A DNA stretch of 64,000 bases, from contig NTJS01000001.1 of assembly GCA_002457155.1 (NCBI GenBank), positions 69,354-133,353 of the forward strand. The letters run 5' to 3'. Of this stretch, positions 31,260 through 55,505 are shown one piece after another (the first letter of the stretch is position 1; the number at the start of each line of letters is the position of its first letter). Position numbers and translations under genes: made by a program. The notes below the pieces were generated by a model, which was given only the letters and a program-made list of their open reading frames with translations, searched no databases and was not told the DNA's origin. The stretch is from Marine Group II euryarchaeote MED-G35 (GTDB lineage: Archaea > Thermoplasmatota > Poseidoniia > Poseidoniales > Thalassarchaeaceae).

Positions 31260-31538
31260 CTAGCTGAAATGCTCGCTAAACTCCCCCTCGCTCATTGCGT
31301 TCAGAGCCACCTTAGGCTCCATTCCTTCCACTCTAACTCGCATTGAAACGCATGTCCCCATCACTTCTCTGCAGCGTGCGTAAATTGACTTCCCAGTCAG
31401 ACGGTCCTTCTGACCTTCCGCTATCTCCTTGACCTGATCCATCGTCAGGTTCTCCACAGAGGCTTCCCATGAACCGTTACACTTCTTCTTCCCCAGTGAT
31501 TGGATGACTTTGTGGGGGGTTTCATTCCGTGCTGACAT
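31260..31538 (-). CDS. rpl11: 50S ribosomal protein uL11, C-terminal rRNA-binding domain only
   Basis: NLTMDQVKEIA..REVMGTCVSMRVRVEG..P..EGEF matches archaeal uL11 CTD; syntenic between spt5 and rpl1; only 92 aa. Confidence 0.88.
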   Translation of the reverse strand: MSARNETPHKVIQSLGKKKCNGSWEASVENLTMDQVKEIAEGQKDRLTGKSIYARCREVMGTCVSMRVRVEGMEPKVALNAMSEGEFSEHFS

Positions 31539-31600
31539 GAAAATGACCTCTTATCGCGGAACTCGCCGACCTGCTCTCCCTATTTGATAATGATGTAAAC

Positions 31601-31612
31601 CGAAAAAAGACA
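31601..31612 (-). terminator. Oligo-T tract downstream of spt5 (putative archaeal terminator)
   Basis: Minus strand TCTTTTTTCG ~10 nt after spt5 stop. Confidence 0.4.
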
Positions 31613-31621
31613 CTTCTCGGG

Positions 31622-32488
31622 TCACTCCACCCTCTGAGTGACTCTCACTTGGTCGGCTCTAACAGTGAGTGCAACCGGTACGGCGGCTTCGAACAACTCC
31701 ACCGTCACCTCTTCCTTTGTCTCGGCAACTCTGGTTACCCGGGCTGCTTGTCCTCTGAATGCGCCTCCTGAGATCTCGACTATGCAGCCCTCCTCGATTC
31801 CAGAGGTGGCTGCTTTCGGCTCTAGGTATGGCAGCACGTCTTCTAGAGGCGCCTCCCCGTCTAACACCTTGCTGCAGTTCTTTAGGGGGGTCACTCCTAC
31901 CCCAACACGCCCGATCAACTTCTGGACATGATGCATCGCAGTAGCCTCGATGAAGATGAAGCCCTTCATGTAATGTGGGCTGAGTACCCCGAAGATCTTG
32001 TCTCGAATGTCCTTCAGAGAACCGGTTCCAGACAATCTTGCCCTAATTTCACTTGCTACGTTTTGTTCTTGGCCAATCGAAGTCTTGAGTATGTACAGGT
32101 AAGAAGCAACATCCCCATACATCTCCTTTAGTTGAGGTGTGGCGTAGTCTTTGTCCTGAATCTTACCAGGGTCGACCCATTCGCTGTTCTTGTACAACGC
32201 ACTTGGGCTGATTTCCGCCTCCTCGATAACGAAAAGTATCGGAGTCACGTCATTAAGACGATTCCCATAGGCAAGTCCCCTGGCCATCCCAGAGCGAACC
32301 AGACTCATCTTCTCAGAACTAATTCCCGTACACTCCGATACTCTTGATACGACAGAATCGTGATCACCAGGGTCGCCGACTCCATAGATTCCATCCCATG
32401 CCCCCGGGAAGTCAGCAACCTCATCTGATCGCTGCATCAGTAGAACTTTCTCTCCGCTTCTGATATACACCGTATAAGCTTCTGACAT
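31622..32488 (-). CDS. spt5: Transcription elongation factor Spt5 (NusG) with N-terminal degenerate Nudix-like domain
   Basis: NGN: YILKTSIGQE..KGFIFIEA; KOW: GCIVEISGGAFRGQAARVTRV..EEVTVELFEAAVP; N-terminal VLLMQRS..FPGAWDGIYG..ECTGI. Confidence 0.93.
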   Translation of the reverse strand: MSEAYTVYIRSGEKVLLMQRSDEVADFPGAWDGIYGVGDPGDHDSVVSRVSECTGISSEKMSLVRSGMARGLAYGNRLNDVTPILFVIEEAEISPSALYKNSEWVDPGKIQDKDYATPQLKEMYGDVASYLYILKTSIGQEQNVASEIRARLSGTGSLKDIRDKIFGVLSPHYMKGFIFIEATAMHHVQKLIGRVGVGVTPLKNCSKVLDGEAPLEDVLPYLEPKAATSGIEEGCIVEISGGAFRGQAARVTRVAETKEEVTVELFEAAVPVALTVRADQVRVTQRVE

Positions 32489-32498
32489 CATTACCACC

Positions 32499-32762
32499 TC
32501 AGCCTATCAGCCATTTGAAGAATGGGGGGAAAACATTGACCATTAGAGCTAGGATGACGAAGCCAATCGCTCCTAACACAAACATCCCAATCCCACAAAC
32601 TATCACGGTCTGTCTGAACTCTTGCTTCGAGGGCTTCTTTGCCATCTTGAGGATTCTGGCGTATGAACCAGTCTGAAGGCCCTTTACACGACCTTCAATC
32701 TCGTCCTGCCAGGACTGAGCAAGCTCTTCAATAGGACCTACCTTGGAATTCTCAACCGCCAC
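32499..32762 (-). CDS. secE: Protein translocase subunit SecE (Sec61 gamma)
   Basis: YARILKMAKKPSKQEF..GIGMFVLGAIGFVI; GTG 32762 after AGGTGG. Confidence 0.93.
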   Translation of the reverse strand: MAVENSKVGPIEELAQSWQDEIEGRVKGLQTGSYARILKMAKKPSKQEFRQTVIVCGIGMFVLGAIGFVILALMVNVFPPFFKWLIG

Positions 32763-32853
32763 GTTACCACCTAGAAGCATCACGGCGACCTACAGATTCC
32801 ATTTAAGGACAACGGGAAGACAAAGTAATTGCATTCTTCATTTTGTGAAGAAT

Positions 32854-52666: not shown

Positions 52667-52743
52667 TGGAGCCACTGGGGAGATTCGAACTCTCGGCCTT
52701 CTGATTACGAATCAGACGCTCTACCGGGCTAAGCTACAGTGGC
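52667..52743 (-). tRNA. tRNA-Thr(CGT), CCA encoded
   Basis: GCCACTG/CAGTGGC acceptor stem, TCTGA-TTCGTAA-TCAGA anticodon arm, GTTCGAATC T-loop. Confidence 0.96.
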
Positions 52744-55052: not shown

Positions 55053-55505
55053 TTACTTGCGAAGTTGCTCGATGATTCTGAAGTGAGTTCCAGCCACCTG
55101 CTCCTGAGCAATATCCCCAATGTCTACCCAAGCGGCATCCACAGCATCATCACCGCCATGTGGGACAGATTCTGGATCAACATCAACGAGGTAGAACAAT
55201 CCAATGATGTGTTTCCTTGGGTCTCTGTCAGGTTCCCCATGGATTGCAAGAGCTACTGGGTTGCTTCCAATGACGCCGGTTTCCTCCTCGAGCTCGCGCA
55301 GCACTGCTCGCTCCGGATCTTCTCCGTATTCTACAAAACCCCCCGGGAATGCCCATTTCCCAAGCCAAATCTCTGGTTCACCCCCTCGCCTGATTAACAA
55401 AGCCTCTACTCGCGAGTCAGTCTTTCTTAGAGCCACAGCATCTACTGCAACTGCAGGGTTGTTGTACCCATGGTGGCCACATTCATCGCATCGGTCACTC
55501 TCCAT
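55053..55505 (-). CDS. NUDIX hydrolase (ADP-ribose pyrophosphatase-like)
   Basis: Intact Nudix box PGGFVEYGEDPERAVLRELEEETG; RDPR; GDDA. Confidence 0.93.
   Translation of the reverse strand: MESDRCDECGHHGYNNPAVAVDAVALRKTDSRVEALLIRRGGEPEIWLGKWAFPGGFVEYGEDPERAVLRELEEETGVIGSNPVALAIHGEPDRDPRKHIIGLFYLVDVDPESVPHGGDDAVDAAWVDIGDIAQEQVAGTHFRIIEQLRK

What the first reader, a model, noticed from the sequence alone, without database searches (positions are those of the whole stretch)
31622..32488. Spt5 fused to an N-terminal degenerate Nudix-like domain
Seen: the secE-linked Spt5 is ~290 aa, with ~130 extra N-terminal residues (to ~32100) reading VLLMQRS..FPGAWDGIYGVGDPG....SRVSECTGI. This is Nudix-like, but the REUxEExG glutamates are mostly lost (compare the intact box at 55053-55505). 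Established: archaeal Spt5 is normally ~150 aa (NGN+KOW), and Nudix proteins bind nucleotides, RNA caps and ADP-ribose, including catalytically dead sensor domains (NrtR). Inference: an RNAP-tethered nucleotide or 5'-end sensor on the universal elongation factor could link metabolite or RNA-cap status to elongation or transcription-translation coupling.
Basis: partly seen in the sequence, partly recalled or inferred. Interest (0 to 1): 0.8.

Follow-up and report, generated by a model that had tools for sequence, protein, structure and literature searches.

The report
Spt5 with a dead Nudix domain
In this marine archaeon and its whole order, the universal transcription elongation factor Spt5 carries an extra N-terminal domain that has the fold of a Nudix enzyme but has lost the enzyme's catalytic residues, so it probably binds something rather than cutting it.

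Summary
Window 31622-32488 (-) is one 288-aa gene between secE and L11. Residues 132-286 are a complete Spt5 (NGN+KOW). Residues 1-128 are an extra domain.

- **Fold:** Pfam does not call the extra domain NUDIX. Profile comparison with intact stand-alone Nudix proteins (99.45%, E 4.8e-22) and a confident AlphaFold model (pLDDT 93.7; Z 15.8 to solved Nudix proteins) show it is a Nudix fold.
- **Lost catalysis:** the Nudix box is degenerate. Across 147 fused copies, one metal-binding Glu is Arg in 146 and another is never acidic. A third lies in a deletion.
- **Real fusion:** 118 of 121 genomes of the order (Poseidoniales by source names) hold it full-length in one frame. The other three are assembly gaps. 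dN/dS is 0.06-0.15. Spt4 is retained.
- **Range:** sister and other Thermoplasmatota genomes show only the plain Spt5 part, but many keep a stand-alone intact orthologue that Poseidoniales lack.

So an enzyme gene was captured by spt5 and turned into a non-catalytic module.

Separately, ribosomal protein L11, encoded next door, lacks its N-terminal domain across the order.

The parts
31622..32488 (-). Whole gene: 288-aa Spt5 with an N-terminal Nudix-like domain (stop included). Alternative upstream starts are ATG 32491 and GTG 32497.
   Evidence: identical 289-aa protein on record as P0002
32105..32488 (-). N-terminal Nudix-fold domain, residues 1-128 counted from the ATG at 32488. Catalytically degenerate.
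   Evidence: hhalign to intact Nudix family 99.45%, E 4.8e-22; AF2 pLDDT 93.7; Foldseek and VIA-align hits are all Nudix, Z up to 15.8
32321..32383 (-). Remnant of the Nudix box, residues 36-56 (G36...R49-V-S-E52-C53-T54-G55-I56), with a 2-residue deletion where the Gx5E glutamate should be.
   Evidence: alignment A4; residue counts in 147 fused copies against 15 intact relatives
31910..32098 (-). Spt5 NGN domain. It starts 3 residues after the last helix of the Nudix-like domain.
   Evidence: Pfam PF03439 E 4.2e-10; secondary structure
31697..31783 (-). Spt5 KOW motif
   Evidence: Pfam PF00467 at 14.2 bits, below cut-off, but inside the full-length TIGR00405 match of 106.1 bits
32493..32500 (-). 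Shine-Dalgarno-like GAGGTGGT, overlapping the secE stop codon and 6 nt before the ATG at 32488.
   Evidence: read directly from the sequence
32499..32783 (-). secE, immediately upstream. Its stop lies 11 nt before the Spt5 start.
   Evidence: Pfam SecE E 2.1e-05
31260..31538 (-). Downstream neighbour: ribosomal protein L11 holding only its C-terminal RNA-binding domain (92 aa). Context only, not part of the fusion.

Best explanation
SHOWN. This is the organism's Spt5, the only full-length match found in this 67.6%-complete genome. It carries at its N-terminus a Nudix-fold domain that descends from a small stand-alone MutT/Ap4A-hydrolase/RppH-like Nudix enzyme widespread in Thermoplasmatota.
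- The fusion arose in or before the common ancestor of the order (Poseidoniales, Marine Group II).
- The stand-alone gene was not found in the members searched; the fused copy is their best match to it.
- The fused copy has lost the metal-binding glutamates, so canonical Nudix hydrolysis is very unlikely.
- The last helix of the Nudix domain runs into the first NGN strand with only about 3 residues between. The domain is therefore held close to the NGN domain rather than on a long flexible tether.

INFERRED (my committed reading). The former active site has been rebuilt into a metal-independent binding site, with a nearly invariant Arg on the Nudix helix, an invariant Tyr and the invariant W-D-G...G loop. 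This site rides on RNA polymerase with Spt4/5. It binds a phosphate-bearing ligand: a nucleotide or dinucleotide such as Ap4A-, NAD- or ADP-ribose-type molecules, a damaged nucleotide, or the 5' end of the nascent RNA. Binding would modulate elongation or what Spt5 recruits.

I put about 0.95 on the shown part and about 0.4 on the binding-module inference. The confidence figure given for this entry is that of the inference.
For: - **Spt5 identity and context:**. Spt4 is present in the own genome and in 41 of 41 genomes of the order.
- **Nudix homology:** an exhaustive phmmer search with the 134-aa N-part gave 119 hits at E <= 1e-3. Of 10 distant hits scanned, 9 are Pfam NUDIX proteins and 1 is another N-domain+Spt5 protein. 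hhalign of 25 N-domains against 15 intact stand-alone relatives gave 99.45%, E 4.8e-22, 115 columns.
- **Fold:** AF2 pLDDT 93.7, pTM 0.87. Foldseek gave 372 PDB matches at E <= 0.001, and all those shown are Nudix-fold proteins. VIA-align gave Z 15.8, rmsd 2.1 A, 122-126 of 129 residues.
- **Degenerate box, 147 fused copies against 15 intact relatives:**
  - position 49: Arg in 146/147, Glu in 15/15;
  - position 53: C/V/A/S/T with no acidic residue in 147, Glu in 15/15;
  - position 98: mostly L/I, Glu in 14/15;
  - the Gx5E Glu falls in a deletion;
  - only E52 is kept (E139, D4, Q4).
- **Constraint:** dN/dS of the N-domain is 0.06-0.15 in close pairs, against 0.01-0.03 for NGN-KOW. 6 of the 17 invariant columns lie at residues 31-55, around the old box.
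- **Distribution:** 118 of 121 order genomes hold it full-length in one frame. All listed matches outside the order start at query residue 93 or later.
- **Origin:** with the intact-family profile, 39 of 126 non-order genomes have stand-alone matches at E <= 2e-36, including the one sister-family genome searched. In 25 of 25 order genomes the best match is the Spt5 N-domain itself. In the tree, the 25 N-domains form one clade (97/99) nested in that family.
- **Short junction:** helix 120-128, then strand 131-136.
Against: - No ligand, RNA or protein binding was tested, and no coordinates were available to show that the conserved Arg and Tyr residues face one pocket.
- Pfam NUDIX does not match the domain at E <= 10, and the profile search against PDB sequences gives only weak hits (E 0.078-0.78). 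Family assignment therefore rests on profile-profile comparison and on fold.
- The full-length AF2 model is poor in the NGN part (mean pLDDT 70.1, pTM 0.56), so the orientation of the domain relative to NGN, Spt4 and RNAP is unknown.
- E52 is retained in 139 of 147 copies, so a residual or unusual catalytic activity is not strictly excluded.
- The N-domain evolves several times faster than NGN-KOW.
- The sister of the fused clade among stand-alone genes is unresolved (polytomy), so 'capture of the sole copy' is inferred from presence and absence.
- An in-frame ATG at residue 123 exists in this genome, so an additional short isoform cannot be excluded here.
Confidence: 0.4

Rival explanations
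1. A purely structural or docking module. The Nudix scaffold was kept only as a folded surface, with no small-molecule or RNA-end ligand. It could stabilise NGN, contact Spt4, the RNAP clamp or DNA, dimerise, or recruit another protein.
For: Non-catalytic Nudix folds that act through macromolecular contacts are among the structural matches: the MutY/MUTYH C-terminal domain at Z 14.2-14.4. The junction to NGN is very short, and Y124-G125 in the last helix are invariant, which fits a fixed interface. The order-specific invariants R70-G71, D106 and G108 lie outside the old box.
Against: The strongest conservation still sits at the old active site (W31, D32, G33, G36, R49, T54, G55). Lost glutamates were replaced by new nearly invariant residues rather than drifting, which suggests a site that still binds something.
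Confidence: 0.3
2. Still an enzyme: a hydrolase using a non-canonical set of catalytic residues, acting on nascent RNA 5' ends or on nucleotides at the polymerase.
For: E52 is retained in 139 of 147 copies and D39 in 128 of 147. The nearest solved relatives include RNA pyrophosphohydrolases and Ap4A hydrolases. The entry title of one structural match (4nfw/4nfx, E. coli YmfB) speaks of an 'atypical hydrolysis mechanism'.
Against: Four of the five conserved acidic positions of the intact relatives are gone. One of them is a positively charged Arg in 146 of 147 copies. E52 itself is Q in 4 and D in 4 copies. The GX5EX7REUXEEXGU signature is not met.
Confidence: 0.07
3. Annotation or assembly artefact: two genes wrongly joined, or the real Spt5 starts at the internal Met before the NGN domain and the upstream part is not translated.
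For: An in-frame ATG at residue 123 is present in this genome and in 19 of 25 orthologues examined.
Against: The gene is a single frame in 118 of 121 genomes. The three exceptions are contig ends or a run of N. Six of 25 orthologues have a non-start Leu codon (TTA or CTC) at that position, and two have no ATG/GTG/TTG within -25 to +11 codons of it. dN/dS of 0.06-0.15 shows the upstream part is selected as protein. A Shine-Dalgarno-like word precedes the first ATGs. Contigs from RNA libraries cover the N-domain, and one spans the secE/spt5 junction with no differences. That last point is weak, because DNA can be present in such libraries.
Confidence: 0.03

Closest known systems
Canonical archaeal Spt5 (Spt4/5 heterodimer; NCBIfam TIGR00405; about 145-155 aa, NGN+KOW)
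   Same: Complete NGN+KOW module, secE-spt5-L11-L1-L10-L12 context, Spt4 gene present.
   Different: About 128 extra N-terminal residues forming a Nudix-fold domain. None of the listed matches in sister-family or other Thermoplasmatota genomes covers that part.
Stand-alone MutT-related Nudix proteins of archaea (alignment A3; nearest solved structure 3GRN, 'MutT related protein' of Methanosarcina mazei)
   Same: Homologous over 115 columns. Same fold: TM 0.79 and rmsd 2.9 A by Foldseek, Z 15.7 and rmsd 2.1 A by VIA-align. The fused domains nest inside this family in the tree.
   Different: The stand-alone proteins keep the Nudix box glutamates (E in 15/15 at two positions, 14/15 at two more). 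The fused domain has lost them, has a 2-residue deletion in the box loop, and is covalently joined to Spt5.
Nudix-related transcription regulators NrtR and AraR (non-catalytic Nudix domain that binds ADP-ribose or a sugar, joined to a winged-helix DNA-binding domain; their function is recalled from my own knowledge)
   Same: A Nudix fold used in transcription control without hydrolysis. They are structural matches at Z 15.8 (3gz8, NrtR) and 14.7 (5bs6, AraR).
   Different: Those are repressors that bind DNA through a winged helix. Here the partner domain is the general elongation factor, and no winged-helix domain is present. No sequence-level family membership was found.
C-terminal domain of MutY/MUTYH (non-catalytic MutT-like Nudix fold that recognises 8-oxoG in DNA; its function is recalled from my own knowledge)
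   Same: A dead Nudix fold fused to a nucleic-acid enzyme and used for recognition. Structural matches at Z 14.2-14.4 and Foldseek E 5e-07.
   Different: Different partner (glycosylase against elongation factor) and C-terminal rather than N-terminal position. No sign of specific relatedness beyond the fold.
NusG/Spt5 proteins with lineage-specific extra domains (recalled: inserted domain of Thermotoga NusG; acidic N-terminus and extra KOWs of eukaryotic Spt5)
   Same: The universal NGN-KOW core decorated with accessory modules.
   Different: None that I know of carries a Nudix fold. Other Thermoplasmatota seen here have a different, beta-rich N-terminal extension with no Pfam match.

Membership tests
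Spt5/NusG elongation factor (archaeal Spt5, TIGR00405) | NGN domain | tested here: met
   PF03439 E 4.2e-10, 39.9 bits against a cut-off of 22.4
Spt5/NusG elongation factor (archaeal Spt5, TIGR00405) | KOW domain after the NGN; full-length match to the equivalog model | tested here: met
   TIGR00405 at 106.1 bits against a cut-off of 69.95, model positions 1-142 of 145. Pfam KOW alone scores 14.2 bits, below its 22.3 cut-off.
Spt5/NusG elongation factor (archaeal Spt5, TIGR00405) | Conserved gene context secE-spt5-L11-L1-L10-L12, and only one copy found in the genome | tested here: met
   There is one full-length match in the own genome, which is 67.6% complete.
Spt5/NusG elongation factor (archaeal Spt5, TIGR00405) | Partner Spt4 encoded | tested here: met
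   PF06093 at 46.7 bits in the own genome; 41 of 41 genomes of the order
Spt5/NusG elongation factor (archaeal Spt5, TIGR00405) | Binds the RNAP clamp coiled-coil and stimulates elongation | not testable with these tools
   needs biochemistry
Nudix superfamily (fold level) | alpha/beta/alpha Nudix fold | tested here: met
   AF2 pLDDT 93.7; Foldseek probability 1.00 and TM up to 0.79; VIA-align Z 15.8, rmsd 2.1 A, 122-126 of 129 residues
Nudix superfamily (fold level) | Detectable sequence homology to bona fide Nudix proteins | tested here: met
   hhalign 99.45%, E 4.8e-22; phmmer hits that carry PF00293. Pfam PF00293 itself gives no hit at E <= 10.
Nudix hydrolases (enzymes) | Nudix box GX5EX7REUXEEXGU with its metal-binding glutamates (signature recalled from my own knowledge; checked against the intact relatives in A3 and the window's own Nudix at 55053-55505) | tested here: not met
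   The Gx5E Glu is deleted. The RE Glu is Arg in 146/147. The second Glu of the EE pair is C/V/A/S/T in 147/147. Only one Glu is kept, in 139/147.
Nudix hydrolases (enzymes) | Pyrophosphohydrolase activity | not testable with these tools
   needs an enzyme assay
NrtR/AraR-type Nudix-related transcription regulators | C-terminal winged-helix DNA-binding domain joined to a non-catalytic Nudix domain | tested here: not met
   No such domain is present. The rest of the protein is NGN+KOW.

The most novel reading that the evidence does not exclude
Across a whole order of abundant surface-ocean archaea, RNA polymerase carries a rebuilt, catalytically dead MutT/RppH-like pocket, held on the polymerase by the universal factor Spt5. 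The pocket reads a nucleotide-type signal directly at the elongation complex and tunes elongation, termination or coupling accordingly. The signal could be a dinucleoside polyphosphate or NAD-type RNA cap, the 5'-triphosphate end of the nascent transcript, or an oxidised nucleotide or base, as in the MutY C-terminal domain. This would be a metabolite- or RNA-end-sensing general elongation factor. The same lineage has also lost the N-terminal domain of ribosomal protein L11, encoded next door, which may or may not be connected.
Probability: 0.3. Interest if true: 0.8.

Novelty: new variant of a known kind. Interest (0 to 1): 0.62.

Why it matters
Spt5/NusG is the only transcription factor shared by all cellular life, and in archaea it is normally a minimal NGN-KOW protein. 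An order-wide variant under purifying selection that carries a recycled enzyme fold would be the first case I know of where the general elongation factor has a built-in candidate ligand-binding domain.

It offers a concrete, testable handle on how uncultured Marine Group II archaea might link nucleotide, RNA-end or damage status to transcription. The protein can be made recombinantly and tested with heterologous archaeal RNAP.

It is also a clean example of a sole-copy enzyme gene being captured and neofunctionalised.

Source databases name these proteins only 'Spt5' or 'NusG'. Six literature searches and look-ups found no description of the fusion.

Tried and rejected
- **Pfam and NCBIfam on the N-part alone.** There was no NUDIX hit at E <= 10. 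The only match was a weak one to IPP isomerase type 1 (E 0.012), a Nudix-superfamily enzyme by my recollection. I used it as a lead only.
- **Profile of the N-domains against PDB sequences.** This gave six weak hits (E 0.078-0.78), all to Nudix-type proteins. They are too weak to stand alone.
- **Full-length AlphaFold model from a 27-row alignment.** Mean pLDDT was 70.1 and the NGN region fell below 50. It says nothing about domain orientation.
- **Complex prediction, N-domain (1-128) against NGN-KOW (129-288), both cut from alignment A1.** The verdict was 'no answer', score 0.00. This is no evidence either way.
- **Origin of P0180, a 275-aa protein with a distant degenerate N-domain plus Spt5.** It was not found by pattern scans of genome contigs or metagenome contigs. 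It is a singleton cluster on one 4.7-kb contig, and a region search found no relatives. Its lineage stays unknown. In the tree it is sister to the order's clade at 91/97, which is not a starred branch.
- **RNA evidence.** Only assembled contigs of four RNA libraries could be laid. They cover parts of the N-domain. They cannot show a transcript start or rule out DNA carry-over, and stretches without cover mean nothing.
- **Idea that the Nudix-like domain replaces Spt4.** Rejected, because Spt4 is present in 41 of 41 genomes.
- **Idea that the window's other Nudix genes gave rise to the domain.** Rejected. The gene at 55053-55505 and the Ap4A-hydrolase-like genes of the order fall outside the clade that holds the fused domains.
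- **Idea that the missing L11 N-terminal domain is encoded elsewhere.** It was not found six-frame in 70 genomes of the order.
- **Literature.** The searches were: 'Spt5, Nudix, archaea' (listing only); 'Poseidoniales, Spt5' (one paper, passages read, irrelevant); 'Spt5, Nudix domain' (listing only); 'Marine Group II, ribosomal protein L11, N-terminal domain' (none); 'archaeal Spt5, domain architecture, fusion' (listing only); and PMC11237513 on archaeal fusion families, searched for Spt5, NusG, Nudix and MutT in the main text, 0 occurrences.
Full report
**1. What is there**

On the minus strand an ORF runs from 32497 (GTG), 32491 (ATG) or 32488 (ATG) to the stop at 31622. The sequence before it reads secE-stop TGA, overlapped by GAGGTGGT, then A-ATG-ATG. 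Across the order the conserved start is the second ATG, giving 'MSEAF/MSDAF...'.

Numbering below is from that ATG. Pfam and NCBIfam coordinates are +3.

- Pfam finds Spt5-NGN (E 4.2e-10) and a sub-threshold KOW.
- NCBIfam's Spt5 equivalog TIGR00405 matches model positions 1-142 of 145 at 106.1 bits, against a cut-off of 69.95, over residues 132-286.
- Gene order is ftsZ, secE, this gene, L11, L1, L10, L12.

A complete Spt5 is thus preceded by about 128 extra residues.

**2. Is the extra part a Nudix domain?**

Pfam NUDIX gives nothing at E <= 10, and the only curated hint is IPP isomerase type 1 at E 0.012. Deeper tests agree with each other.

*Sequence.* An exhaustive phmmer search of 1.84 billion representatives with the N-part returned 119 proteins at E <= 1e-3. 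Beyond fragments of the same fusion, the hits are proteins that Pfam calls NUDIX. Of 10 scanned, 9 carry PF00293: stand-alone forms of about 130-140 aa, NUDIX+IF-2B forms and an AcnX-swivel+NUDIX form. One is another N-domain+Spt5 protein.

*Profiles.* A profile of 25 N-domains from the order (A2) aligned to a profile of 15 stand-alone relatives (A3) with hhalign gives probability 99.45%, E 4.8e-22, 115 columns.

*Solved relatives.* The stand-alone family's nearest solved relatives by sequence are 3GRN (a MutT-related protein, E 5.9e-14), Ap4A hydrolases, NudI, MutT and CTP pyrophosphohydrolase.

*Model.* AlphaFold2 on the combined 39-row alignment gives mean pLDDT 93.7 and pTM 0.87.
- Foldseek against the PDB gives 372 matches at E <= 0.001. 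Every match shown is a Nudix-fold protein: NudI, RenU, 3GRN at TM 0.79, BdRppH, RppH, Ap4A hydrolases, the MUTYH C-terminal domain, NrtR and others.
- VIA-align gives Z up to 15.8, rmsd 2.1 A, over 122-126 of 129 residues.

**3. Is it catalytically dead?**

Alignment A4 maps the intact relatives' box onto the fused domain. I then counted residues in 147 fused copies (27 from A1 plus 120) against the 15 intact relatives.

| Position | Fused copies (n = 147) | Intact relatives (n = 15) |
|---|---|---|
| Glu of 'RE' (49) | Arg in 146 | Glu in 15 |
| First Glu of 'EE' (52) | E139, D4, Q4 | E14, Q1 |
| Second Glu of 'EE' (53) | C116, V15, A10, S4, T1 | Glu in 15 |
| Glu of Gx5E | falls in a 2-residue deletion | present |
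| Family-specific 'WE' Glu (98) | mostly L/I | Glu in 14 |
| Neighbour of that Glu (99) | Tyr in 146 | H/N |

The signature GX5EX7REUXEEXGU is therefore not met. The window's own Nudix at 55053-55505 has it intact. The replacements are not random decay, because Arg49 and Tyr99 are themselves nearly invariant. W31, D32, G33, G36, T54 and G55 are invariant in A2.

**4. Is the fusion real and how wide is it?**

- The word-indexed protein search found 620 relatives of 160-510 aa. The 120 listed are 265-296 aa with 91-100% coverage. Sources name them only 'Spt5' or 'NusG', and one source organism is Candidatus Thalassarchaeum betae, which is in Poseidoniales.
- Six-frame search of 121 genomes of the order (3 families, 21 genera) found a match in 121 of 121. 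In 118 the match spans query residues <= 7 to >= 289 in a single open frame.
- Of the other three, two are cut by contig ends (G084, G098) and one (G097) is interrupted by a run of N.
- Four rows are flagged '1 TAG'. For two of them (G004, G061) the fetched ORFs are intact from their ATG. I did not check the other two.

Distribution across the phylum (301 genomes):
- 63 of the 64 order genomes have E <= 2.7e-81. The exception is the truncated G084.
- The best match outside the order is 1.4e-31.
- Every listed row outside the order starts at query residue 93 or later, mostly 125-134. This includes the seven listed rows from the 8 same-class sister-family genomes. A further 232 matches were not listed.

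Pairwise dN/dS of the N-domain is 0.055-0.15 at dS 0.37-1.4, against 0.009-0.032 for the NGN-KOW part. One saturated pair gives 0.385 against 0.120.

A conserved internal start is unlikely. The in-frame Met at residue 123 is ATG in 19 of 25 orthologues and TTA or CTC in 6. Two orthologues have no ATG, GTG or TTG within -25 to +11 codons of it.

Contigs assembled from four marine RNA libraries cover parts of the N-domain. One (X2, record 7) spans 32261-32524, across the secE/spt5 junction, with no differences. This is weak support only.

Spt4 is present in the own genome and in 41 of 41 genomes of the order.

**5. Where did the domain come from?**

I searched 151 phylum genomes with the intact-family profile A3.
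- 39 of 126 genomes outside the order have matches at E <= 2e-36, mostly in frames of about 130-290 aa and a few longer. One of them is the single sister-family genome searched (G146, 1.0e-41).
- In all 25 order genomes the best match (E 7.9e-20 to 4.5e-10) lies at the coordinates of the Spt5 N-domain. Only weaker hits go to other Nudix types.

A maximum-likelihood tree of 69 domains puts the 25 fused domains in one clade (97/99) on a long stem (1.03). That clade sits inside the clade of the stand-alone family (62 rows, 95/84). The order's other Nudix genes fall outside. The position within the family is an unresolved polytomy.

The simplest reading is that the lineage's copy of this small Nudix gene was fused to spt5 once, and then lost catalysis.

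One metagenomic singleton, P0180 (275 aa), has a 26%-identical and likewise degenerate N-domain on an Spt5. It branches beside the clade at 91/97. Its source lineage could not be traced.

In three genomes of one family (f5, so not independent), the stand-alone gene lies directly downstream of a T2SSE-type ATPase with a KH domain, and in two of them next to Trm5. This is a faint hint of an RNA-related ancestral role.

**6. How it most likely works**

*Shown.* This is a non-canonical Spt5 whose N-terminal Nudix fold lacks the catalytic metal ligands. The last Nudix helix (120-128) is followed after about 3 residues by NGN strand 1 (131-136), so the module is held close to the NGN domain.

*Inferred.* The old active-site region remains the most constrained part and has acquired a nearly invariant Arg and Tyr in place of or beside lost glutamates. 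I therefore favour a metal-independent binding site for a phosphate-bearing ligand or a nucleic-acid end, carried on RNAP by Spt4/5 (about 0.4).

*Rivals.*
- A purely structural or docking role (about 0.3).
- Residual non-canonical hydrolysis (about 0.07).
- An artefact or internal start (about 0.03).

Which ligand binds, and where the cleft points on RNAP, are unknown. The full-length model was too poor to tell.

**7. Comparison with what is known**

It works like the non-catalytic Nudix domains of NrtR/AraR regulators and of the MutY/MUTYH C-terminal domain. These are structural matches, and their functions are recalled from my own knowledge. It is not a member of those families, having no winged helix and no glycosylase.

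It is a member of the Spt5 family and of the Nudix fold superfamily. It fails the defining signature of Nudix hydrolases.

I found no publication describing it. Supplementary tables of the archaeal fusion survey (PMC11237513) could not be opened and might list it. Automatic structure-based domain databases may already flag the fold, but I could not check that.

**8. Verdict**

This is a new variant of a known kind, of solid interest to archaeal transcription and Marine Group II biology.

The order-wide loss of the L11 N-terminal domain, seen in passing, deserves its own follow-up.

Noticed in passing
window 31260-31538 (-); also L015:2573-2866, L016:2547-2825, L017:2417-2686: Ribosomal protein L11, the gene just downstream of spt5, is only 90-98 aa and holds only the C-terminal RNA-binding domain (PF00298). 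The roughly 65-aa N-terminal domain present in sister and other Thermoplasmatota is missing (alignment A5). PF03946 (L11 N-terminal domain) is over cut-off in 0 of 70 genomes of the order (69 of them at least 90% complete) and in 9 of 9 sister-family genomes. The own genome has a single L11 C-terminal-domain copy. One literature search found nothing on this. The loss has the same phylogenetic range as the Spt5 N-domain gain. A link between the two is pure speculation.
   Followed up: partly
L019:1135-1995 (+), L020:1168-1980 (+), L022:1488-2363 (-): Other Thermoplasmatota families (f42, f6) also have long Spt5 proteins (271-292 aa), but with a different N-terminal extension of about 125-140 aa that gives no Pfam match. 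N-terminal decoration of Spt5 seems to recur in this phylum. The sister-family Spt5 (L021) is about 179 aa.
   Followed up: partly
protein P0136 (385 aa; cluster of 4): A variant of the Poseidoniaceae-like (f3-type) fusion carries a further extension of about 85 aa in front of the Nudix-like domain. It includes a Cys-x2-Cys...His-x4-His stretch that looks like a C2H2 zinc finger.
   Followed up: no
protein P0180 (275 aa, singleton, one 4.7-kb metagenome contig): This is a very divergent protein: 26% identity in the N-part, and rich in Lys and Ile. It has the same architecture (degenerate Nudix-like domain with the W-D-G motif, then NGN+KOW). It is sister to the order's clade at 91/97. Its lineage was not found in either contig collection.
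   Followed up: partly
alignment A1, between N-domain residue about 110 and the last Nudix helix; also after NGN 'IGR.GG': There are lineage-specific insertions. Some f1 genera have 11-18 extra residues in the loop after the W-x-D-P-G motif (L032, L033, L038, L018), and f3 has about 8 extra there. All f3-type members also have a 9-residue basic insert (R-D-P-x-A-R-R-G-x) in the NGN-KOW linker region.
   Followed up: no
window 31539-31621 (-): The 83-nt spacer between spt5 and L11 holds an oligo-T run right after the spt5 stop, followed by an AT-rich stretch. L11-L1-L10-L12 may therefore be transcribed separately from secE-spt5.
   Followed up: no
L049, L052, L053 (genomes of family f5): The intact stand-alone relative of the N-domain lies directly downstream of, and abutting or overlapping by a few bases, a gene for a T2SSE-type ATPase with a KH domain. 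In L049 and L052 it is next to Trm5, and in L053 next to a prenyltransferase (UPP synthase) gene. These are three loci of one family, so they are not independent.
   Followed up: partly
It is not the source of the Spt5 N-domain.
   Followed up: partly
window 52670-52743 (-): This tRNA is the only Rfam match at gathering threshold in the 64-kb window.
   Followed up: no
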